NCBI GenBank assembly: GCA_003971905.1 | Contig: RSEE01000097.1 | Span: 1-64,000 of the forward strand | Length of the DNA: 64,000 nucleotides | From: Moniliella sp. 'wahieum' | Taxonomy: Eukaryota | Direction of reading: 5' to 3' | Shown here: positions 6,644 through 56,999 of the stretch, in pieces | Position numbering within the stretch: position 1 is the stretch's first letter | Layout of the letters: every line of letters begins with the position of its first letter | The notes under the pieces: generated by a model | Told to the model about the DNA's origin: nothing | Seen by the model: the letters and a program-made list of their open reading frames with translations, nothing else | The model's database searches: none | Made by a program: the position numbers and the translations under genes

Positions 6644-7769
6644 ATGCCCAGCCGGTCCAATCTGGAAGAGTCATCCCCGCTCCTGGCGGCGAGCATGTCG
6701 CTCCCCCCCGTGCCGTCTCCCGCCGCGCCGTGTTCACCATTGCCGGCGTCCTGTCTGTCCTGATTCTCGGGGGCATGTGGATGTTTACCCTGGGTCTCCT
6801 CGTGCCCAACGTTGCGCCCTGTCGCGTGTCGCCTCCCTCGACCCTGCCACCGCCTCCGTCCCGGCGACCCGGGCCGTCTGATCATTGCCGGCGACGTCCA
6901 CGGCATGCTGCACAAGCTCAAGGAACTTCTGGCCCAGATGGAGTACGACCCTACCATTGACCGCCTCATCCTCCTTGGCGATTTTACCACCAAGGGCCCC
7001 GATGGCATCGAAACCATTGACTTTGCCATCGAGCATGATGCGTACTGTGTCCGCGGCAACCACGAGGACCAGATCCTATGGGCGTATGCCAAGTACCACT
7101 ACCTCGCTCAACCCCAAACCTACCCGCCGTTTGCTTCGCCTACCCCGCAGCTGTTTGGCGCCCGACCCCAGGTCACCTTGGCCCCCACCAGGCCCGTGCG
7201 TCCGGTCCCAGTGTCTGCCCAGCCTACGCACCGGAGCTGGCGTGGCCGGGCTCCCCCTGGGCTGGCCTTAGTGCGTTTAACCCCGACCGGGACATGGCGC
7301 TGGTCAAGGCGCTCCGACCGCACCATGTTCGCTACATGCAGTCCTGCCCGGCCATCTTGGAGCTGGGCCAGGTTTCGGCCAAGGGCATTGCGGCCGTGGC
7401 GGTGCACGGTGGGTTGATGTGGAACGAACATACTCTCGAAAAGCAAGATCCGGCCGTGGTCATGCGCATCCGGGGCGTGACGGGCCACCATCATGAAGAT
7501 CCGAGGAGCCCTTGGGCGACCCTTGGTTTACCTGGTGGAACGAGGAACAACGTACCCGCGTCAAGGAGGAGCAAATCGAAGGTTTTACGGGCCACGACGC
7601 GTCCAAGGGCTTGCAGCTGTTCCGGTACAGCAAAGGACTGGATACCCGCTGCCAACGCGGGGGCAAGCTCTCGGGTTACACCGTGACCCTTCTGGATGGC
7701 CACTACCATGATGAAAAGCTCCATCAGGTAGATTGCTCCGACGAGGTCGAGGATGACGCAACTGCGTGA
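6644..7769 (+). CDS. Calcineurin-like metallophosphoesterase with N-terminal TM anchor (Ppn2/YNL217W-like)
   Basis: GDVHG, LGDFTTKGPD, VRGNHED, VAVHGG and KGLDTRC motifs; hydrophobic segment AVFTIAGVLSVLILGGMWMFTLGLLV near the N-terminus; several frameshifts. Confidence 0.85.
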
Positions 7770-8447: not shown

Positions 8448-11400
8448 ATGGCGACCAGCAAGGACACGCCGCCGATTGCGCGCCGCCTGGATGCGCTCGT
8501 GGCCCAGTACCACACCCTCTACGGGCCGCCTGGCTATGTGCCCCCCGGCCAGTCCGGCGCGCCCTCCCCCGCCCTCCGCCGCCGGCAAGAGTGCAGCCAA
8601 GTCAACTGCCGCGCCGGCTGCGCCTGGCCTGCCGCCGCTCGCCGCCACCATCTCGGTGGTGCTGCCGCCGCCCGCTTCGGCAGGTGCTCCGGCGTCCGCC
8701 GCAGCCACTGGCCAGGTGCGGTCCATCCTGTAGTCATTATCCCTGCCGCCTCGTATGCCGCGATCCTGCGCCTGCTCCCAAGCCCACTCCGCCCGCACTT
8801 CCGGCCCCGCTCCTGCCCCCCCCCCGTCCCCGCCGCCGCCGCCTGCCGCTCCTCCATCACCATCACCACCGCCGCCGCCGCCGTCTGCACCCGTGCGTGA
8901 ACAAGCATCTCACAGTGTAGTGCCTCAAACGGTCATTCTCGTCGATGCGCGTCCTCAGTTGGCTCCGCTGCCTTCGGCGACCAAAGCGAGCTCGGTACGC
9001 TCGAAAGCTCTTCCCGTGCTAGCTCGACCAAGGCCGCATCCATTGTGGCAGCCGACCCAGCCCCTGCTTCAAAAGCCGAGTCGGTCAAGTCAGCCTCTTC
9101 CAAAGCTTCGTCCAAGGCTTCGTCCAAGGCTTCGTCCAAGGCTTCGTCCAAGGCCTCGTCCAAGGCTTCATCCAAGGCTTCCTCAAAGGCCTCCTCTACC
9201 ACTTTCCAAACCCAGGTCACTCACGTCCGATCACTCAAGCCTGCGGGCTCAGTGGCAGTAAGCAGCATGACAGCTGTATTGGAGGAGAAGGAGGAAGAGG
9301 AGGAGGAGACAAGCACTGTGACCAAGGTGGCCAAGACGGTCAATTTTGCCCCCTCCGAGTTCAGCAAAGTAGCAGCTCCCGTTCCTATGCGAGTATCAAG
9401 CGTGGTCCCATTCGTCTCGCCATCTTTTGCGATGGAACATGGCAGTCCCGCTTGGAGGTGGAGCCCATCAATGACCAGGGAACCCCCACGTCTAAAACCG
9501 ATTCCTACTACACCAACGTCGCCCTGCTCGCCCAATGCCTCAAATCGACCGGCGAACGGGCGGATGGAAGTGGGTATCGCATCCCTCAGATTTCTTTATC
9601 TCCCTGGCGTTGGTGCCACACCTTATAAAACTCAAAAGGCCACACAAGGTGCTACCGGACAAGGTACGTTTGCCCCCGTCCATACCCCTCTGACCTGTGT
9701 GTCTAACCACTTCGAACCTAGGTGTTGGCCATAATATCCAGACCGCCTGGGCCTGGCTGTCAGACAACTGGCAGGCCAACGATGAGATCTTCCTTTTTGG
9801 GTTTCCAGAGGCGCGTTTACGCACGTGCCCTGGGTTGATCCATTGGGGGGGCATTTTGACCAAATCCCAAGCAGCGTTCCTCAAGCCCATTTGGGATGCT
9901 ATTCCCAGCGTAGGCCCGACCGGCCCGAAACGGGCGTGCACGCTGCTGCACTTTGCATGCTGTTACGGGACTGTGGCCTAACCCTCAAGCGGTTGGGGTG
10001 AGCCATGCGGCTTCTCTCATTACCCTGGGCGATGGCGCAGCGATCAAACGCAAAGGCCGATCCAAGTCTCCTTCGATCCATTGCACGTCTCTGTTCCACC
10101 TTTGAACCCGTCCGTGCGGCCACCGCCGATCAAAGTGGTGGGTGTGTGGGACACGGTGGGAGCAATGGGATTGCCGGGCCACTTTCAAAACCCATTGGTC
10201 AAGGAACACTTTTCTTTCTTGACCCTGGCCTTGGGCACAACATTGAGTATGCGTTTCATGCACTTGCGCTCGACGAGGAGCGCAAAGATTTTCTTCCGAC
10301 GCTGTTTTATCAACCGCGCGATGCCCCGCCAAGCCAGTGCTTCGCCAAACTTGGTTTCAAGGCAGCCACGCCGATATCGGGGGCGGGTACCAAGAACATG
10401 GCTTGAGCGACATTACCTTGGCTTGGATGGTCGCCCATCTGCGCGATACCAACTTTGGCGAACTACTAGCGGTGATGTGCGACGCTTGCGCAAACTTCAA
10501 GACGAACGCATCTTGTGGGCACACCAGCCGCCCCACAAGTCGCGCATGGCCATCGAGTCACGTGCGGTACGGCAGTGGAGGATAGTCATATGTCCCTGTT
10601 GGATGTGGTGGGACCGCAATGGGTCGACATGGTGAGCAACGGGCACCGGTTCGAGTCGCTACATCACTCGGTCGCGCTCGGGCAGAGACATCCCCGCGCG
10701 ACAGCCCCCAGTTTGATTCGCTTCGACGCTCCGATCCCGGCAGGTTGATTGCCCTGTGGCGCGAGGCGACCGACCCAGGCAGCTTGCTGACCGAGCAGTA
10801 CTTGCGCTGGCCATGGGGGTGCGCCCGCGCCCCAGAGAAGAAGGGGTGCAAGCTCGTGTCGTCACAGTATGAGCCGACCCACCCTCCAGACCGACGAAGG
10901 TCAATGGGCCATGCCGCATCGTGTCCAGCGGCGCGCGTACCCAAACACCGGCCTACCTCCCGTCACCAGTACCAGCTCACCAGGCGGAGGCGGGCCGTTC
11001 CATCGCCGCGGTCAATCGGAAACTGCAGTGGAGACCGGACCTGGGCCAGGACCACTCAACCTGTCGACCCTCACCTCAACCCAACCCCAAAAGGGTAGTC
11101 AGACAGCGCAGACGTACGCTCTTCAGCGCTCCGTCACGGTCCTACTGGTGCACCGCCTTTTAGTGCCACCCCCGCGCGTCCCTCCTACGCCTCCTTCCAC
11201 TGGGAGACGACATCGCGGGGAACCGTGTCGGATACCATGCTTCCACGTCACCCCACACAGACCAAGCTTACCTCCTCTTCGGTTCTGGAAGTGGAGTACC
11301 CTGAGAACGCAAGCACCGCAGCGGAGCAACACACGACCCATCCGCCTCCTCCTATGGCCACGGGCGTACCCCCTGCAATTGGCGAAGTCGACCAGATCGA

Positions 11401-16700: not shown

Positions 16701-17573
16701 TTCTCTTTCCCTCCCTCATCAGCCTTGCATTCGCATACATCCTCGGCTTCTCGCCTGATGTATGGCCCTGTGCAGCATGAAACGGGATTCGCAAGCACAG
16801 TGTTTGCTCGAACCTAGCATCCTTCTTGGGTCGGATGAATCTTTTCTGCATTCCCGAGAGTGTTGTCTGTACTGACGCAATTGTTTCAACGATGTGCCCA
16901 CGCCAATGCGAGCTTGGGATGCACCATTGCGTCTGAAATATTTTTTCTTCGAGAAATGCCATACGGAAGTAATGACGAGATTGATCTACGGATCTTGAGA
17001 AGGAAATGTTTTCAATAACAAGATCATTTTGATTGGAATTGTTCAGTGGGACGCATAGTCAATGCTACTTAAGTCGAGGAAAGATATTCACTATGGCAAC
17101 ATAACATATCTAACTTGTTCAAGCGAAATGACAGTTCAATGAGTATGAAAATCTAACAGATTACGGTGTGTTGCGTGGCTAAAGAAAACCGTGTTTTATG
17201 GCCCATTTCTCGTCTCTGGCCATGTGTAAACACTGGCGTTCCCTTCATGTTTACGACCTGGCAATTCTGCACATGTCGGCGGCAGTGGTCGCTCGAATGT
17301 TTAATCACCCGGGTAACAAGAGCAAATGATCCCATTGGAAGGTGGGGCCCAGTCTACCTATCAGAACCATGGTACACGTACCCAGCTGACAGCACCTCAC
17401 ACCTTGGATGCTTTTCCATCCGTCACTCCCTTATGCTCTGCCCTGACTGGCTCGTTTCTTTGATTTGAATGGCACTTCCATCTCCTCTTTCTTACTGCAG
17501 TCCTGTTACTGTCTACGTCACCTTTCCGGTTGTCCTGCAATTACAACGTACTGTCTTGTTACAGCGCATCAGT

Positions 17574-17733
17574 TGTCGGCCTCGCTACTACCACAGAATG
17601 TGAGCACTGAACGTCGTATTGGACTAAGAAGCTTCTGCGACTGACTCGTCCAGAAGACTGGTGCGAGCTCGGAAGGAATGAAAGCTGACTCACGTGACTC
17701 AGGGTCCGCGCGGTCCTAGGACGGATGTCAACA
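17574..17733 (-). repeat. 3' LTR of the copia element
   Basis: Base-for-base match to 22474-22633. The pol stop codon (TGT TGA) falls in its first 6 nt. Confidence 0.98.
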
Positions 17734-20700
17734 CCCCCGCTGACCGGAGGGCCCAGTCATGTGGACTGGATCCATCTCCTCGACGCGGAGTTGAGCAAGA
17801 TGGCTTGTCAGGGCGGGACGGCCGAGAGGCTTGGTGAGGACGTCCGCTGGGTTCCTTTCGCCGGGGATGTGTACAAGTATGGCCTCGCCCGAGTCCACGT
17901 GTTGCCGTACATTGTGGTACCGGATCTTCAGCTCTCGGAGCTTGCCGGTGCTGCCAAATTTGTGGGCGAGATCGACGACAGACTTATTGTCGCAATACCA
18001 ATGAATGGGTGTACCCTCGCCGATGGCCCCAAGCTCGATCATGATGTTCTTGACATAGTTGGCGTCAACCAGTCCATCATATCCTGCCGTATATTCGGCG
18101 GCGGCGGTACTGGTAACGCTCTTCGGCTGAAGAATGGATCGCCACGACACCGGCACACCGTACACCATCAGTAGGCATCCAGATGTGGAGCGTGCCTGGA
18201 TGGGATCTCCCGCCAAGTCGGAATCTGTATACAGCGCAATGGCCGGTGCATCTGATGTTGGGGTCAACCTCAGGCCCTTTCCTCGAGTATGGTACAGGTA
18301 GCGAAGGAAGTCATCGACTGCTTGATGATGCTGCTGCGATGGGTCGGCAGCGGCTCTGCTGAGGGCCGTGATAGCGAAGAGGGAGTCAGGCCGGCCCATT
18401 CGTGCAGCCCACAGTCCCGATCCGATCTTCCCCTGATATGCCTTGCGCAAGGCTGGGAGGGATGGGGGTTCAGGGTCGGCACGGGGCGGTATCATCCGTA
18501 CGGGATGTGGGAGAGTCCGGATCCACGGGGCTTTGATGTGGTGCTTTGCCACCACTTCCTCGATGAACTTTGGTTGGCTCAGGTACAGCTCCCCACCGAT
18601 CCGATCGTATTGGCATCCCAGGTGGTAGTGAAGGGGACCGTTACCACGAACATCAATGTGTGTGTTTATCTCGGCCATAAACTCCTCGTACTTTTGGTGT
18701 GACTTGCATGCGAGGAGCAGATCGTCGGTGTGGACCGCCAGGAGGATCTGCTCACCCGGTGGTGCAGCGCGCACGAACAAGCAGGGCTCGGTCAAGCTTT
18801 GCGTGAAGCCGAGCTTGTCACGCAGCAGGTTCCGGATGTATCGTGCCCAGTTTGCTCCGCTCTGATGTAGCCCGTATAGACTCTTCTTGAGACGCCACAC
18901 GCGACCACCCGCTTCGGGGAAGTAGGGGGGTGGGCGGATGTAGACTGCTTCTTCGAGGGGGGCGTTCAGGTACGCTGCATTGACGTCCGCCGAGAAGAGG
19001 CCAAACTTATACTTCTCGGCCAGCACGACGAGGGTCAGGATGGCAGGTGTGCGCACCGATGGTGCGAACGTCTGGCCCCAAGTCTCGGCCGATTGTTGGT
19101 GTCCGCCCGCGACAAAGCGCGCGCGGTGGCGCAGGAACCGGCCCTCGGCGTCCGTCTTTGTGGTGATGCGCCATAGTCCTATGAGGATTTGTGCACCCGG
19201 TGGTGGGTACGTAGCCTCGTAGGTGCCGTATCGCGCGAGTGTGGCCACCTCGTCGGCCATAGCCTGCTTGACCATGGCAAAGGAGGGGTGAGTCTCGAGA
19301 CCCTTGAGCGTCTTGGGAGCGAGGGGTACGCCATCCTTGGTGAGCTGAACCGTGTCCGGGTGGATGGGTGCGCTGAGAGCAGTCATGGCGGCGTATTCGG
19401 GAGGTTGAACTGTGTCGGCAAACGGGGGGGCGGATGTGTCAGGTAGGGGGCGGGCGATGCCGATCTCTGGTGCGGCGCAGTGGGGCGTGGCGGCTGCAGC
19501 ACGAGCATGGTAGGTCGTGTCGGTGGGGTCGTCAGCGATTGGGAGTGTGTGCAGGTCGAGGGAGGTGCGGGTGGTGCGCTGGCGGAGGGGGTAGCGGCGC
19601 GGAGGGGGGGGGTGGTGGGAGCGGGTGTCTGGGGTGTGGCGGCGGTTCGGGGCATGGGTGCTGCCGCGGCTGGCGGAGTAGGGTTAGCGTCTTTTTCACT
19701 GTCGATTTTAATTTGAGGTGATTTGGAGATGTCGGGTGGGAAGTGGTCGGGGTGGAGATGGGGGTAGATGGCGTTGCCCCATTTGTACGGTTTCGACCAG
19801 CGGTAGGTGAAGGTACCCAGGGATGGTTGGTATGTGGCGAAGAGCCATCCCTTTGATCCGCGCTGATGGTGGTATCCTACCAGCATACCTTCCTCTGCCC
19901 GCGCGCTGAGCTTGTGCTCGCGGCGTGACTCGGGCAGATGGAGGTATGCAACGCGGCCAAAGGGTTGCATCGGTAACGAGTATGCGTGGCCTTTGTATCG
20001 CTCAAATCGCGATTTGTTGTCTTCCCCGGATGTTTTGAGTGGCATTTGGTTTTGGGTGAAGCACGCAGCGTGGAGGCTGTGTTCCCACCAGTCCGACGTC
20101 GGAAGACCTGTACCCAAGAGCAACTGCCTTGCACGAGTCGTTATGGTTCGGATGGCACGCTCAGCCACACCGTTGCTAGCACTCTGCCCCGGGATTGTCC
20201 GTTCTGACGTGATGCCTTGCTCGTCCAGAAAAGGTTGCAGTGCGCTTGTCAATTCGGGGGCGTTGTCCGTGCGCAAAGTCCGCAGCAGTCTGTCCGGGCC
20301 GTAGCGTTGCTCCCGCAATATGAGGTTCCGCAGTTCCTTCGTTGCAGCGCCCTTTGTCGGGATCGCTGTGGTGAAGACGTACCGCGTGAAGTCATCAACG
20401 GCGACGAGGGCGTATCCGTGCCCCATGCCGGTTACCCGGGGGAGGTCTACTACGTCGACGTGGAGGACCTCGAAAGGTCTTTTGGATCGGAGGCGGTCCC
20501 GGCTCGGATGGGGCGATGCTGTCGCTAGTGCCACCGCGCATGTTGGGCAATCCCACTCTGAACGACAGAGGGAGATATGCTTGGCTGTGACGCGGAGGCC
20601 TGCGGTTTCCGATCGTGTAAGCCAGGGGAGGAGGTCGATGGCTGCGTGGTTCCAGCGTTTGTGGGCTTTAGAGACGTGGTCCAGGGCCAGGGATGCTGCG

Positions 20701-21171
20701 AGGGAGTTTGGGGTTGAGGGTGGGTCGGCCGGTTTGATCGGTTTGGTCGCCATGGCCCGCAGGGGTGTGGGTGGCGTTCGCGGGTTGTGTAAGATCGTGA
20801 ATTGATAGTCACTGCCGGTTACTTTTCGTAGGGTGGATCCTGGGTTACCAAGCCAGATACCCTTCTGGTGTGGGGCGAAGTATGATGCGATTCCGGTGTT
20901 CGACAGGTGTGCTACACTGACGAGATTTCGGGCTGAAACGGGGCATGTATAGGCTGTTGGGGAGTTTTATCTCCATTTGGTGTCCTCCTAAGCATCGGAT
21001 ACGGATTGTGGCCGTGCCTCGTCCTTCCGCCTTTACATGTGTCCCGTTAGCAACCTCTATCTCGTCGTCGCAAGGGGTCATGGATGTGAAGACGGATTTG
21101 TCTTTCCAAATGGATGGGAATGCCCCACTGTCATATAATGCCCGGATGATTCGCATTTCGCCCCCGAGTTC
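17728..21171 (-). CDS. pol: Copia Pol polyprotein (protease, integrase, RT, RNase H) with two apparent indel frameshifts
   Basis: PR: LYDSGA, IEVANG, AEGRGT. IN: HKRWNH..CPTC, LHVDV, LRTDNAPE, NGVAERAIRT. RT: ADVNAAYLNA, LKKSLYGLHQSG, HTDD. RH: YTDSD, AEY, YCDN, NPADVLTK. Frame breaks at ~20930 (removing one base restores NLVSV) and in the Pro-rich IN-RT linker (~19400-19620). Confidence 0.93.
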
Positions 21172-22419
21172 CTAGTAGTCAGCTGTGCCCGCATCAACGT
21201 CAATCACTTCAGACTCGGGAGAGCTCGCTCTCTGAGCGACGTGAGCGTTGGCTCGGCCTGGGTTGCGCGGAGGGACAACAGGTTTATTAGACGTCGCGCT
21301 GCGCCAGGGTTGGTTGGTGCGGTCTTGCCCCTTGGTCTTTGTGTCCGCGAGGTTGTCGTCGCCGGCTTTGCCCCCGCTGGAGTTTTTTCCCCCGCTGGTG
21401 GGTCGTCCCCCGCTGTCGGGTCGAGTCCAAGGCGTTCCTCCGTTGACCGGCTTGCCTCCGTTTCTCTTCCTTTCTCCACCGGGATACGTGGCGGCTGGTA
21501 TGTCCATCACGGCCTGCCGTAACTTGTCTAGACTCGAGCGCTCTTCACGCTGGCGAATGCTCATGTCGCGTAAGCCGAGTAGGATCCCAGTGCGTTCCTG
21601 CTCTTCCGTAAGTGGGATGCCCGCTCGCGTCAGGCTTGCACTGATCTCTTCCATGTAGTCGAGGTAGTCTCGACCCGATCGGTTTCCTTGGTCGGCCGAA
21701 AAGTAGCGAATGAGTAGAGGCCCTCTGTTTGCGGTAGGCGTATATCCATACCGCTGACGCAGCATGTTCAGCGTGTCCTGGGTGCATGATATTTCGTGGT
21801 GGGTGCGGATCGTCCGGAAGAGGGTTGACGGCATGGCTTCCCTAAGAAGGTTGTGCAAGCGTCTGTCGAGGTCCTCGGTGAAGTAGCGGGAGCTGCGACC
21901 ATTCTGGACGACGTCGCTTGCGTGGGGGTGGGCATCTGTTATCGCGAAGAGAAATTCGTCTTCCCAAGCGCTGTAGGCGGACGGGTCTTTGTTCAGATCA
22001 GGCCACTTGATATTCTTGGTGGGAGACTCGCGTAGTGATCTGTAAAGGTCGTACTCGGGTCGCGAGGCTGCGCCTGTAGGTGCCCCCAAAGTTGCGTTGG
22101 GTTGAGTTTCCATTTGGTGGATGTTTTGCACCACAAAATTCGTAGCCCGTCGAACCCAGTTTGTCGTGATAGACGTAGGTTCGTCCTTCCATCCAAGCCA
22201 CTCGGCTCTGTCGTGTATAGCTCTGTTGATCTTCTCTTTAACGACATCGATGTCGTTCGTCTTCTTGAACCACAGGTGCGCTTCGGCGCAAAGCATCATG
22301 AGTTCCTCGTTGTCGGTGCCAATCGGTGGCGGATCGCGACCGGTTGGTGTCCAGTAATCGCGCTTGTTCACCATTGTGGTGTCGCTGACCGAGAGATCGG
22401 TGTTAGCGTTGGCGCCCAT
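21172..22419 (-). CDS. gag: Copia Gag
   Basis: First ATG after the 5' LTR (MGANANT...), open to TAG at 21174-21172; copia-gag-like YSAWEDEF, LRQRYG and DYLDYMEEISASLTRAGIPL..ILLGL. Confidence 0.85.
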   Translation of the reverse strand: MGANANTDLSVSDTTMVNKRDYWTPTGRDPPPIGTDNEELMMLCAEAHLWFKKTNDIDVVKEKINRAIHDRAEWLGWKDEPTSITTNWVRRATNFVVQNIHQMETQPNATLGAPTGAASRPEYDLYRSLRESPTKNIKWPDLNKDPSAYSAWEDEFLFAITDAHPHASDVVQNGRSSRYFTEDLDRRLHNLLREAMPSTLFRTIRTHHEISCTQDTLNMLRQRYGYTPTANRGPLLIRYFSADQGNRSGRDYLDYMEEISASLTRAGIPLTEEQERTGILLGLRDMSIRQREERSSLDKLRQAVMDIPAATYPGGERKRNGGKPVNGGTPWTRPDSGGRPTSGGKNSSGGKAGDDNLADTKTKGQDRTNQPWRSATSNKPVVPPRNPGRANAHVAQRASSPESEVIDVDAGTADY

Positions 22420-22473
22420 GGTTGTGGGTGTAGTTTTGGCCAGCTCAGGGATGAGCAGATAAGGATGTAACTC

Positions 22474-22633
22474 TGTCGGCCTCGCTACTACCACAGAATG
22501 TGAGCACTGAACGTCGTATTGGACTAAGAAGCTTCTGCGACTGACTCGTCCAGAAGACTGGTGCGAGCTCGGAAGGAATGAAAGCTGACTCACGTGACTC
22601 AGGGTCCGCGCGGTCCTAGGACGGATGTCAACA
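22474..22633 (-). repeat. 5' LTR of the copia element
   Basis: Identical to 17574-17733. Confidence 0.98.
22586..22601. promoter_or_regulatory. TGACTCA-CG-TGACTCA: two Gcn4/AP-1 consensus sites overlapping a CACGTG E-box in the LTR (also at 17686-17701)
   Basis: Sequence reads TGACTCACGTGACTCA. Function is inferred from consensus only. Confidence 0.5.
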
Positions 22634-23029
22634 TCAGTAGCCTTGCTCCCCAATCCGTCGTCCCGATTAAAGAACTGTCCGACAGTCCGTCGTCAACTAC
22701 TTAGCTCAGCTCCAATCTGTTCTGACTCTAGATCAACCCTGAAACACATCATTGGTATGTCCTCCTCACTGAAGAGAAAGCACCCTTAAACTGTTGATTG
22801 GGCCCCAGTCCCGGGTCCAACCCGTGGTACAGTTCTTGTCTTTCGTCTGTTTTGCCGGCTACGCTCTCTGATACTAACCTTCCCCCTTTTAGAGACCTAT
22901 ACTTCTCATATACCTCAGACACAGTCCTGTGTGTGACAACGACCTTGCTTCCTCCCATCCCCCCCTGCCCCTCGTCTTTAATACAGCTTGGAAACTACAT
23001 TTTGTTTGACATCCTCAGACTCCATGGGT

Positions 23030-33527: not shown

Positions 33528-35213
33528 ATGCGTCTCTTCACTGCGGTAACCCTCGCCTTCGCAGCTGTAGTGGGTGCGCGACCGACACCACCCAGCTTTG
33601 TACCCGGAGCAACAGTGCAGGATGCTTCGGTCATCCCAGCCACGCTCAAGAGCGCCGCCACTTTGGCGAAGTCGAGGGCAAGTACATGGTCAAGCTCAAG
33701 CGTGGGGTATCCTCTAGTGTGTTCTTGGCTCATCAGCAGCTTATTGCCTCGGCCCAAAGCGAAGCAATGCGTACTACGGGTTCTCATCTGCTGAGCGGGA
33801 GACGCACGGCATCCGGCACGTGTATGACCTCGATGCCCATCTTCAAGGCTATGCTGGCCGGTTCACCGACGACGTGCTGGCTTTTATCCGGGCCCAGCCA
33901 GAGGTAGAGTACGTGGAGCGCGACTCGATTGTCAAAACCATGGAGATCCCTCCGGAAGAACAGATGCGTCTCCCCAGCATTTACTCTCCTGCCTCCCCCG
34001 TCGTCTCTGGCAAGCATGTCACCCAGAGGGGCGCCCCTTGGGGGCTGGCACGCATTTCTCATCGCGAAGAACTAGGCTTTGGCAACTTTAACAAATATGT
34101 CTATGACCCTACCGCGGGGGCCGGCGTAACTGCGTACATTATCGAGTACGTTTTCCCTCCATCCAGCAGGAAATGCCTTGCCGCAGAGCTACTTGACCTC
34201 TAACCCACCCACGACAGTACTGGTATCTACATTCACCATGCTGATTTCGGAGGTCGTGCTCGCTGGGGTAAGACGATCCCTTCAGGTGATGTTGACGAAG
34301 ATGGCAATGGACATGGCACCCATTGCGCTGGCACCATTGGCGGCACAACCTATGGTGTCTCGAAAAATGCGGACTTGGTCGCGGTCAAGGTGCTAAGCAG
34401 CTCGGGTTCGGGCACCATGTCGGACGTGACAGCGGGGGTACTATGGGCCGTGAATGATGCCAAGGAAATTTCAGCCAAACTTGCCTCGTCCGACCCAGCA
34501 ACGCGCAAGAAGCACAAGGGATTTGTGGCCAACATGTCTCTGGGTGGTGGTAAGTCGCCTACCCTGGATGCTGCCGTAAACGGTGCCGTTTCTTCTTCGG
34601 TCTTCACTTTGCCGTGGCGGCCGGGAACGAGAACTCGAATGCATGCAACGTGTCTCCAGCAGGTGCCAAGTTACCTGTGACGGTGGGTGCGTCGGACGTG
34701 GGCGACAAGCGGGCCTATTTCTCCAACAAGGGCGAATGTGTTGACATTTTCGCTCCGGGGCTCAACATCAAGTCCACCTGGAACACCGGTAAAGAGGCGA
34801 CCGCTATTCTGTCGGGTACATCCATGGCCACCCCGCACACCGTGGGCTTGCTAGCGTACCTTCTTAGCATTTACGGTACCGACGACTTTGCCACGATCGA
34901 GGGCGCGATTCCTATGCCCTCTGTTGAAGAGGTGGCACTTCAGTATGCTCAGAAGGACTTAGCCAATGCCCTTCGTACGCATGTCAAGTCTCTGTTCCAA
35001 GCGAATAGCCTACTGCCCGCTTCCGTTCTCGAATGGATGGTTGATGTTCTTGCTTCGGGGCCCGCGCCCTCGCCCCAGGCATCCGTTGTCTCGGTGCTTC
35101 ACCCTACGGATCTCAAGAAGGCGCTCGTATCGTTTGCTACCAAGGGCACTCTTACTGATGTCCAGGGGAGTCCCAATGTGCTGGCGTTCAACAATGCTAC
35201 CACGCTAGCGTAA
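33528..35213 (+). CDS. Subtilisin-like serine protease (S8A, Prb1/cerevisin type) with signal peptide and I9 propeptide
   Basis: Signal peptide MRLFTAVTLAFAAVVGA; YMVKLK, VEYVERD, APWGLARISHR, YII(D)TG split by an intron at ~34146-34218, DGNGHGTHCAGT, NMSLGG, AAGNEN, SGTSMATPH. Confidence 0.95.
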
Positions 35214-54430: not shown

Positions 54431-56999
54431 ATGGCCACGCTCCCCACCGCCGCCGTCGCCCTGCGCCCCCCGCCGCCACCCTCCCCGCCCCCCAGCGCAA
54501 GCTGCCCCGCCACCGCCGATCACGATCACGATCACGATCACGACAGTCCCACCGCCCCCCTCCCGTCTGGGGCCTTGGCCACTCCGACCCACCGCTGCAC
54601 CACTACCCGGCTCTTGCTGCTCCGCGTCCGGCTGCCCGCCCCTGCGACTCATAACGCCTGCCCAGCTCGGCGCACTACAGCAGGAGCTGGCGCGGTCCGA
54701 GGTGCCTGCACATATCGTGTTCCCCTACCTCTATGGGCTGCACACACCTGATGCTCGGGCAGAGGAATTGCGGACGCTGTTTGGGCTGCCCTTCCCTCCG
54801 CCTGCGCCTTCGTACCGTGGCCTGACGCTCGTTCGGGCCGACATGCCTTCTCCCGGGGACACGCTGCTGGAAACCTGTGCCGCCAGTCCGCCCTAGTCCG
54901 CCGCTGGCGGGTCTGGAGACGCTCGTTGACCATGTGACTGATGAGGGGCCTCGGTTGCTCGGCTCCACCTCGAGCATGTCGTCGCAGGACACGGTGGACT
55001 CGCGCGCTAGCGGATCGGGGTGTTCCTTGCTGTCGATTGAGCAGAGGGCGAGTATTGGATCCACCACGAGCGTCGAGAGCAACGACCCGCCGTTGAGTCT
55101 CCCTCTTGCGCATGCCAGCCCAAGTCCCCCGCCCCAGGACCCGACCAAATGGTCCATTGTCGTCGCGTCGGCGTCGGCGTCGCGGCGCGAGCGCGAACGC
55201 AGGGGACGAGTACCGTGCCTACACACCCCAACCGGCCCACTCGATCTTGGTGGGCAGTGTGGATGGACGCAAACTGGTAGCTGCGCCGGCGCATGTGTGT
55301 CATCGCTCTTCGCGCAGTAGCAACGCTGGCTTTGTCCCTGCGCACAATCGCATCCGCGCCGAGTTTTTGCCTCCTCCGCGGCCGAATTCGGGCGAGGCGA
55401 GCTCGGACCTGCGTAACTTTGGTGCACAGCATACCTTATACGCGGGCGTGTCGGACATTGTAGTCTATTGTCCCGCGCTGCACTCGGGTATGGTCGAGTT
55501 GGCCAGCTGGCTTGCGCAAGCGCAAGAGCGAGCGCAGGAACAAACGCAAGGTCAGGCTGTTGAGTACAATGTCTTTCTGATCGAAGAAGGGTTTGAAGCG
55601 TTCCATCCTTCTCAAGTCTCCGTTGGCAGCGAGGGGGAAGTGGTGCACGTGCACGATGTGGAGGAGCAAGAGCGCACGTTTCTTCAAGAGATGGTGAAAG
55701 CGGTCGAGGTAGCACCCCATGTCTACGTTGGTGGGCCAGGGTGCGCCGACGTACCCGACCAACCCTGAGGGATGGGCCATCGTGCTACGTACGTCGGGTG
55801 GCGCCTTAGAGTCCACACGGTTGCCCAGGGTTACCCATTTCCTCGATGAAGTCGAGGCGGGCGTTAGTTCCATCATCCCCCCGAGGCTGATGTGGGGGAG
55901 GCGTGCACGCGGTATTGTCGCGAGATGGGGGAATTTAGCATGCTGGAATGTGCCCCGCCATGGGGTGCACGGGGCGCGGTGGAACGGTGGGTGGACCTGT
56001 TAACTATGGATGAAGGAGATGGCCGAACCGTCAAGATGGGTAGGAAGTTGTTGGGCCAAGAAAATTCTCGTCTACTCGGACGATGGCTACACCGAGTCGA
56101 CGGTGCTGTTGCTAAGCTACCTGATGTTGAGACACCAGCTCAGTCTGCCCCGTGCCTTTCTCTATGCCCACGTACGATGTGGGAAAGACTTTCACACCAC
56201 CTCCGATCAACTCTCGCTCCTTCACGCTATTGAAACCTGTATCCACGCCCGCATCTGCGGGGCCAACAACTGCTTCCACACGGACAGTGCCTCTTTTTCT
56301 TCCGACGGTACGGACGGGGCATGGATCAAGTACCCGACCTTTGACGGCTCCCTTCCTTCGCGCGTCCTACCCACCCTGTACCTCGGGAACGAGCATCATG
56401 CCCGGAACGCGGGCCTGTTGCAAGAGCTGGGGGTTACCCACATCCTTTCCGTGGGCGAGTCACCGTTGTTGGCGAGCGTACAAGAAGAAGGATTGGACGA
56501 GCGCTGTCTCAATCCGCACACCTTGGCTGGCGCATGGAGCTTAGGTCGTCTGACCGTGCGTGAAATCCAAGGTGTGCCCGACGATGGGGTGGGGGAATTG
56601 CGATCGGTGTTAGCGCCAGCAGTGGAGTTTCTGACGGAAGCTCAACGGGCTGGCGGATGCGTTCTGGTTCACTGCCGTGCGGGTGTCAGCCGAAGCGCGA
56701 CGATCGTGATGGCCTACCTGATGGCCCAGAATGGCTGGTCCCTCGAGCATGCCTATAGCCACACGCGCACCCGGCGCCTTGCCGTACTCATCCAGCCCAC
56801 CTTGCTGTTCTTTTGGGAACTGCAGAACTGGGAGGCCCATCTGACCCAGACAAACCAACCCAGCAAGACCACCTGGCATAGCTTGGCAGCCAACATTGCC
56901 AAGGCAAAGTACGTTTGCATCCGATCTGAGGTTGTGGGATGGGTTAGGTTTGGATCACTAGTGACTGACCCGACCGAATTGTGGTCAATGGCAAATTGA
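54431..56999 (+). CDS. PPS1: Dual-specificity protein phosphatase, Pps1-like
   Basis: VFPYLYGLH, YRGLTLVRA, LRNFG, SDIVVY; degenerate first DSP domain KILVYSDDGYTES; active domain GSLPSRVLPTLYLGN..VLVHCRAGVSRSAT..RRLAVLIQP. Terminal intron probable at ~56909. Confidence 0.9.

What the first reader, a model, noticed from the sequence alone, without database searches (positions are those of the whole stretch)
21110..21180. Copia gag and pol are in the same frame, separated by a single UAG: candidate stop-codon readthrough
Seen: gag ends GAC TAC TAG and continues in frame GAA CTC GGG GGC GAA ATG CGA ATC.. into the protease (LYDSGA), with no frameshift at the junction. The other breaks in this window are indels, so a clean in-frame stop exactly at the gag/PR boundary of an element with identical LTRs looks programmed. 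Known: readthrough is used by MuLV (UAG plus pseudoknot) and Candida Tca2 (UGA) but is rare among copia elements. Inference: the downstream RNA may fold (CUCGG with CCGGG; AAUGC with GCAUU or GCAUUCCC) into a pseudoknot-like stimulator. Reinitiation at the ATG 15 nt after the stop is an alternative.
Basis: partly seen in the sequence, partly recalled or inferred. Interest (0 to 1): 0.78.

Follow-up and report, generated by a model that had tools for sequence, protein, structure and literature searches.

The report
Conserved UAG between copia gag, pol
In this smut-related fungus thirteen different copia-type jumping-gene families all end the coat gene with a UAG stop just before the enzyme genes, most with the same short sequence after it, which points to a shared signal that lets some ribosomes read through the stop.

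Summary
Confirmed. The copia element at 17574-22633 (-) has gag (415 aa), TAG at 21174-21172, then protease in frame. All 58 family copies found carry the TAG, so it is neither an error nor decay. Twelve further copia families in this genome, with RT as little as about 30% identical to this one, also have TAG there. G follows in 13 of 13, and 11 of 13 share UAG-GRN-NNC-GSG although the codons encode different amino acids. This is an RNA-level constraint. Best reading: programmed UAG readthrough setting the Gag:Gag-Pol ratio (about 0.78), not shown directly; no RNA run was listed. The proposed pseudoknot is not supported here (z about +1); two other lineages have strong 3' stems. Reinitiation fails as a general rule (in-frame ATG in 2 of 13). 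Use as a splice acceptor fits host introns poorly. Copia elements with gag-stop-pol are known (Tca2, VdLTRE5; both UGA). The UAG, the shared context and the spread across lineages were not found in my paper searches. The scan noted this junction before on other DNA of this genome (34 notes fit).

The parts
22634..22638 (-). target-site duplication ACTGA (5' side)
22474..22633 (-). 5' LTR, 160 nt, TG..CA
   Evidence: identical to 3' LTR
21175..22419 (-). gag ORF, 415 aa, no Pfam match, no CCHC knuckle, acidic tail
   Evidence: aligns at 19-28% identity with Gag of five sister families
21172..21174 (-). gag stop codon UAG, in frame with pol
21163..21171 (-). conserved 3' context GAA CUC GGG (pattern GRN-NNC-GSG in 11 of 13 families); candidate readthrough signal
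21154..21156 (-). in-frame ATG 15 nt after the stop; not conserved (2 of 13 families)
20932..21135 (-). protease domain (Pol_BBD, DSGA motif), same frame as gag
20184..20483 (-). integrase core (rve)
18532..19206 (-). reverse transcriptase (RVT_2); pol frame ends at TGA 17730-17728
17574..17733 (-). 3' LTR
17569..17573 (-). target-site duplication ACTGA (3' side)

Best explanation
The element belongs to a young, high-copy Ty1/copia family of an Ustilaginomycotina-like fungus. One genomic RNA is translated into Gag, which usually ends at the UAG. A minority of ribosomes insert an amino acid at the UAG and go on into protease-integrase-RT-RNase H, giving Gag-Pol at a low ratio. The signal is mainly the primary sequence of the first nine bases after the stop (G at +1, C at +6, G at +7 and +9, usually A at -2), shared across most copia lineages of this genome. 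In some lineages a GC-rich 3' stem is added. Shown: the layout, fixation of the stop, conservation of position and context. Inferred: readthrough itself, its rate, the inserted residue, and any role of structure.
For: TAG in 58 of 58 family copies; the copies are near-identical with own target duplications (40 substitution columns over 25 siblings of 5 kb), so the family spread with the stop. 61 further copia loci were examined: 47 had a readable junction, 36 of them (35 places, 12 families) with TAG. The other 11 are stop-less derivatives of two TAG families; 14 were unreadable. RT identity of the window family to the other lineages is 30-58%. Protease is in the TAG frame in 9 of 13 representatives. 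+1 G 13/13, +6 C 11/13, +7 G 11/13, +9 G 12/13, -2 A 11/13; all other positions from -12 to +22 are at most 10/13. Codon +2 encodes six different amino acids but always ends in C. Codon +3 is GGG or GCG, which are 16% of Gly and 20% of Ala codons in pol. The pattern occurs at 3 of 1385 other TAG sites in these loci (pattern defined after seeing the data). Families K and M keep a long stem from +6 with changes on both sides at +16, +17, +18 (z -2.9 and -3.6); D and F have a stem at z -2.9 and -2.2. A conserved context around a gag-pol stop is also the signature reported for fission-yeast Tj1/Tosmo elements (bioRxiv 10.1101/2022.12.06.519325, passages).
Against: No transcript, ribosome or protein data. 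In the window's own lineage no significant 3' fold. UAG-GAA is not among the type III hexamers listed in PMC13517186. In 4 of 13 representatives (E, G, L, M; single copies in an indel-rich assembly) the protease is 1-2 bases out of frame with the TAG. For E, G, I, J the gag frame is open for under 100 codons before the stop. The 13 families form only about six lineages, so counts are not independent. Stop-less derivatives have spread: in family D, 17 copies with the stop deleted and 3 with TCG against 6 with TAG, so the stop is not needed in cis. The best-studied precedent, Tca2, gave no readthrough from its local junction in a reporter.
Confidence: 0.78

Rival explanations
1. The TAG|G is a 3' splice acceptor: unspliced RNA makes Gag, and a spliced RNA joins an upstream donor to pol and removes the stop.
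For: TAG|G fits YAG|G in 13 of 13 families; CTGAC lies 3 nt before the TAG in families A and B. Splicing around the protease is common in plant copia elements (PMC5580714, abstract and passages), there to make Gag-only RNA.
Against: In 7 of 9 host introns called by eye the CTRAC branch motif lies 11-22 nt before the YAG, and the base before the YAG is a pyrimidine in 9 of 9. At the junctions there is no branch-like motif in 7 of 13 families within 45 nt, and the base before TAG is A in 8 of 13. In families A and B the only donor-like site found is in the LTR, upstream of the gag start. The deletions that remove the stop run 18 nt or more past the TAG and are not GT..AG bounded, so no intron-loss copy was seen among 47 junctions. 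Splicing does not explain conservation at +6..+9.
Confidence: 0.08
2. Pol is made separately, by reinitiation after the gag stop or from an internal promoter, and the conserved motif is a DNA or initiation element.
For: In-frame ATG 15 nt after the stop in the window family. Tca2 has a weak junction promoter. A similar string (TAGGACCGCGCGG) opens the LTR of this family.
Against: 11 of 13 families have no in-frame ATG between the stop and the protease DSG motif, so the protease would be cut short unless a non-AUG start is used. Strict frame and position conservation of the stop would not be needed. Free Pol needs its own route into the particle (argument in PMC2194720 Discussion).
Confidence: 0.07
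3. The host reads UAG leakily or as sense (suppressor tRNA, weak release factor or changed code), so no cis signal is needed.
For: All 13 junction stops are UAG. None of five host gene ends read was TAG (four TAA, one TGA, one of the five from a frameshifted copy).
Against: No in-frame TAG in 3445 codons of three unbroken pol frames that hold 114 Gln codons. eRF1 shows the usual NIKS and YxCxxxF motifs (motif names recalled). A pattern search for an intron-less CUA tRNA gave 3 hits and none is a tRNA. The Rfam tRNA search scored only 63 of 2133 candidates, so a suppressor is not excluded. The conserved context argues for a cis signal.
Confidence: 0.05
4. The TAG is a nonsense mutation or assembly error, and the family is moved in trans by a stop-less helper.
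For: Stop-less copia copies exist in the genome (families D and I).
Against: No stop-less member of the window family among 58 copies; unbroken pol frames of about 1146 codons follow the stop in several copies; the stop sits at the same place in 13 families; the stop-less forms are 94-99.6% identical in DNA to TAG-bearing relatives (three pairs compared), so they look derived.
Confidence: 0.02

Closest known systems
Tca2 of Candida albicans (Ty1/copia; PMC2194720)
   Same: Copia domain order; gag and pol in one frame split by a single stop.
   Different: Tca2 uses UGA with an 8-nt purine spacer and a predicted pseudoknot, and its 300-nt junction did not direct readthrough in S. cerevisiae. Here the stop is UAG with a conserved GRN-NNC-GSG context across many families.
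VdLTRE5 of Verticillium dahliae (copia; PMC3441728, passages)
   Same: Fungal copia with gag-stop-pol, short LTRs (159 bp), no CARYYA motif.
   Different: UGA, two copies, no signal proposed. Here UAG, about 100 copies over many families, with a candidate signal.
MoMLV / type III UAG readthrough (PMC13517186, passages)
   Same: UAG followed by G at the gag/protease border; base identity in the first 8-9 nt matters; a 3' structure in some lineages (K/M, D/F, I).
   Different: The window family reads UAG-GAA, not UAGGGV/GUA/GAU; no supported pseudoknot; stems start at +4 to +9 rather than after an 8-nt spacer in most families.
Tj1/Tosmo/Tcry1 of fission yeasts (bioRxiv 10.1101/2022.12.06.519325, passages)
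   Same: Several related fungal LTR families share a gag-pol stop with a strictly conserved context.
   Different: Those are Ty3/gypsy with GAA-UGA-CU.

Membership tests
Ty1/copia LTR retrotransposon | pol order protease-integrase-RT(RVT_2)-RNase H | tested here: met
   (Pol_BBD, rve, RVT_2 in that order); RNase H read by eye from the translation, not matched by Pfam
Ty1/copia LTR retrotransposon | TG..CA LTRs with 5-bp target duplication | tested here: met
Ty1/copia LTR retrotransposon | tRNA primer site after the 5' LTR | tested here: inconclusive
   GAGTTACA after the LTR in A, C, D; GGTT.. variants in I, J, K, L; likeness to a half-tRNA Met primer site is recalled, not tested
gag-stop-pol layout (Tca2, VdLTRE5) | single in-frame stop between gag and pol, fixed in the family | tested here: met
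gag-stop-pol layout (Tca2, VdLTRE5) | stop is UGA | tested here: not met
   UAG in 13 of 13 families
gag-stop-pol layout (Tca2, VdLTRE5) | descent from the same clade as Tca2 or VdLTRE5 | not tested
   their sequences were not fetched; nearest named relatives are Ustilago copia at 25-33%
type III readthrough (MoMLV-like) | hexamer UAGGGV, UAGGUA or UAGGAU | tested here: not met
   window family UAGGAA; met by H, K, M, G, L only (5 of 13)
type III readthrough (MoMLV-like) | 8-nt purine-rich spacer then H-type pseudoknot | tested here: not met
   no pseudoknot energy model was available, tested by stems and pair counts only
type I readthrough (TMV, UAG-CAR-YYA) | CARYYA after the stop | tested here: not met
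   0 of 13
programmed stop-codon readthrough | measured readthrough above background or a junction peptide | not testable with these tools
   no RNA or protein data for this organism

The most novel reading that the evidence does not exclude
A readthrough signal not found in the papers searched, UAG-GRN-NNC-GSG, acting mainly through base identity inside the ribosome entry channel, is the ancestral way copia elements of this fungal group make Gag-Pol. It may extend to smut fungi, whose copia Gag also ends at its own stop. Stop-less derivatives then spread as Gag-Pol-only passengers on Gag from stop-bearing copies.
Probability: 0.4. Interest if true: 0.75.

Novelty: new variant of a known kind. 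Interest (0 to 1): 0.58.

Why it matters
Copia elements with a stop between gag and pol are described as very rare, and for the model case, Tca2, the bypass mechanism is still open (PMC2194720; PMC7175516, passages). Here one genome gives 13 diverged families with the same UAG and a short shared context, plus natural stop-less variants. That turns an unexplained layout into a position-by-position reporter test. If confirmed it adds a UAG readthrough context to the known classes. It also warns that gene models and 'intact element' filters will mis-handle these elements; Ustilago gene models appear to splice over the same junction.

Tried and rejected
Pseudoknot in the window family: not supported. 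Searches used mis-registered structures and were redone. The D/F/H stem is 97.6% paired but no pair varies, so it says nothing on covariation. RNAalifold on the two-sequence K/M alignment did not recover the +12..+18 helix; the compensatory pairs come from the two separate folds. Long-range partner: perfect 8-9 nt complements lie 826-916 nt downstream in A, B and C, but at non-homologous places, and the A motif binds the B target better than its own; rejected. Rfam: nothing meaningful at the junction. Sequencing runs: no RNA holder listed; the contigs of two DNA runs laid do not cover the junction. Gag alignment search found no outside relatives. Viral and prokaryote collections gave no relatives. 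Metagenome scan gave only distant copia (RT 26-36%): 40 of 80 had a protease hit, and 4 of those 40 have a stop within 40 codons upstream; only L236 looks like a possible clean gag-UAG-pol. About 43 identical tRNA copies proved to be tRNA-Ala(AGC) with unique flanks in the four compared. Gao et al. 2003, the survey of gag/pol recoding, is not held and was not read; it may list further stop-type copia. Paper searches that found no UAG-type fungal copia or this context; subscription papers are largely missing from that library. No supplements were read.

Full report
Observation. The window holds a complete copia element on the minus strand, 22633 to 17574, with identical 160-nt LTRs and a 5-bp target duplication. 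Gag starts at 22419, runs 415 codons and ends GAC TAC TAG (21174-21172). The same frame continues into the protease (Pol_BBD, then rve and RVT_2). Two single-base frame breaks further down, near 20930 and 19611, are not shared by most siblings. The assembly is rich in random indels (441 indel columns against 40 substitution columns over 25 siblings).

The stop is fixed in the family. All 26 full-length copies returned (26 of 160 candidates were scored) read TAG. Of the family's protease hits, 58 of 58 have TAGGAACTCGGG directly upstream in the genome-wide pattern search (tables matched by me). The copies are almost identical and sit at different places with their own target duplications, and several carry an unbroken pol frame of about 1146 codons after the stop. 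The family therefore spread recently with the stop in place.

The stop is shared across copia lineages. I fetched 61 further copia loci (60, plus L104). 47 had a readable junction; 14 did not. 36 loci (35 places) fall into 12 more families, each with TAG shortly before the protease motif. The remaining 11 are stop-less forms of two of these families. With the window family that makes 13 families in about six lineages. RT identity of the window family to the other lineages is 30-58%, and as low as 24% between them (E, G and M are placed by junction and protease likeness only). The protease is in frame with the TAG in 9 of 13 representatives. In E, G, L and M, each a single copy, it is 1-2 bases off, which may be assembly error but is not resolved. 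Gag is open for at least 165 codons before the stop in 9 of 13 families.

The context is conserved at RNA level. After the TAG, +1 is G in 13 of 13, +6 C in 11, +7 G in 11, +9 G in 12, and -2 is A in 11; no other position from -12 to +22 exceeds 10. Eleven families match UAG-GRN-NNC-GSG. The second codon encodes Leu, Gly, Ser, Tyr, Cys or His but always ends in C. The third is GGG or GCG, minority codons in pol (16% of Gly, 20% of Ala). The pattern is found at 3 of 1385 other TAG sites in the same loci, and 137 of 562 plus-strand TAGs are followed by G. The pattern was defined after seeing the data and the families are related, so this is an indication, not a probability.

Structure. In the window family the first 50 and 80 nt after the stop fold no better than shuffles (z +1.1, +1.2). 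Stem 2 is 67% paired, and nothing beats the shuffles. Stem 1 begins at +4, within the 11-12 nt that a review places in the ribosome entry channel (PMC13517186, passages). Other lineages have stronger stems: D and F (z -2.9, -2.2; pairs invariant) and K and M (z -2.9, -3.6), whose separate folds keep a helix at +12..+18 with three pairs changed on both sides, although RNAalifold on their plain alignment missed it. A long-range partner was considered and rejected. I read the shared bases as primary sequence, with a 3' stem added in some lineages.

Rivals. Reinitiation: only A and J have an in-frame ATG before the protease motif. Splicing: TAG|G fits an acceptor, and A and B have CTGAC 3 nt upstream. 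But 7 of 9 host introns called by eye have the branch motif 11-22 nt before the YAG, and all 9 have a pyrimidine before it. Seven of 13 junctions lack a branch-like motif, and the stop-removing deletions overrun the TAG. Changed code: no TAG in 3445 codons of three unbroken pol frames, ordinary eRF1 motifs, no intron-less CUA tRNA by pattern; a suppressor is not fully excluded (one search scored 63 of 2133 candidates).

Against a strict need for the stop. Family D has 6 copies with TAG, 3 with TCG and 17 with an 81-nt in-frame deletion of the stop and the 5' arm of its hairpin; family I has one deletion form. These are 94-99.6% identical to TAG-bearing relatives in the three pairs compared and look derived. 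They may move with Gag supplied in trans (inference). For the gypsy element Tj1 the stop is reported as essential (bioRxiv 10.1101/2022.12.06.519325, passages).

Host and wider distribution. The host appears to be an Ustilaginomycotina-like, intron-poor fungus with duplicated genes. This is inferred from eRF1, pelota and tubulin sequences (likeness judged from memory) and from Ustilago copia being the nearest named relatives at 25-33%; the species was not determined. Two unnamed database proteins are 98% identical in RT to families B and D but give no junction DNA. In Ustilago and related entries, 54 of 120 listed proteins are Gag-only and end 25-47 residues after the start of the CCHC knuckle. 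Fused models join the protease through variable junctions, as if an intron were placed over a break. So Gag has its own stop there too; whether pol is in frame could not be tested. Among distant metagenome copia, 4 of 40 with a protease hit have a stop within 40 codons upstream, and one (L236) looks clean.

Comparison with what is known. Tca2 (PMC2194720: abstract, Background, Discussion read) and VdLTRE5 (PMC3441728: passages) are copia elements with gag-UGA-pol; the latter paper calls the layout very rare. For Tca2, Pol follows the LTR promoter but the local junction gave no readthrough in S. cerevisiae. MoMLV and type III viruses use UAG-G with a 3' structure (PMC13517186, PMC2754532: passages); the window's UAG-GAA is not among the listed hexamers, while 5 of 13 families match them. 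Plant copia use splicing instead (PMC5580714: passages). PMC7175516, PMC3248453, PMC9603552 and PMC5009743 were searched by term only. Ten searches showed no UAG-type fungal copia and no such context; Gao et al. 2003 could not be read. Earlier notes of this scan report the same junction on other DNA of this genome. They agree on the layout; one found no helping sequence, which the 13-family comparison here contradicts.

Verdict. A real, inherited feature. It works most likely like programmed UAG readthrough (about 0.78) and is a new variant of a known layout. It is not a member of the MoMLV pseudoknot class by the tests run. The added value is the shared context and the natural stop-less variants, which make the mechanism directly testable. 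Interest 0.58.

Noticed in passing
L074-L077, L150 and sites (family D): A stop-less derivative with an 81-nt in-frame deletion outnumbers the TAG form 17 to 6; three more copies have TCG. A possible Gag-Pol-only passenger.
   Followed up: partly
database proteins P0003-P0013, P0042-P0161: Ustilago copia Gag ends at its own stop after the CCHC knuckle, and gene models seem to splice over the gag/protease border.
   Followed up: partly
L236 261-263 and downstream: Metagenome copia with an acidic tail, TAG GGC GCG G, then a long open pol frame; possibly another gag-UAG-pol element. The contig starts 260 nt upstream.
   Followed up: partly
window 22609-22621 (-) and 17709-17721 (-): The LTR opens with TAGGACCGCGCGG, close to the family D junction string; at the 3' LTR this TAG is in frame four codons after the pol stop. 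Unexplained, perhaps chance.
   Followed up: no
window 22420-22633 (-): The gag frame is open through the whole 5' LTR (486 codons before the TAG).
   Followed up: no
window 22466-22473 (-): Primer-site region reads GAGTTACA in families A, C, D, not TGG; primer tRNA unknown.
   Followed up: no
genome-wide: About 43 identical dispersed tRNA-Ala(AGC) genes; 64 tubulin and 69 actin-family matches and paired eRF1 and pelota genes suggest a hybrid or polyploid assembly.
   Followed up: partly
L148 (family I): A copy in which the stop and the whole downstream hairpin are missing in frame.
   Followed up: partly
window 6764-7414, 9982-10632, 34554-35210, 56004-56996: Host ORFs matching metallophosphoesterase, Tle1-like catalytic domain (below cut-off), subtilase and dual-specificity phosphatase.
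   Followed up: no
window 9081-9212: 12-nt tandem repeat, about eight copies, inside an ORF.
   Followed up: no
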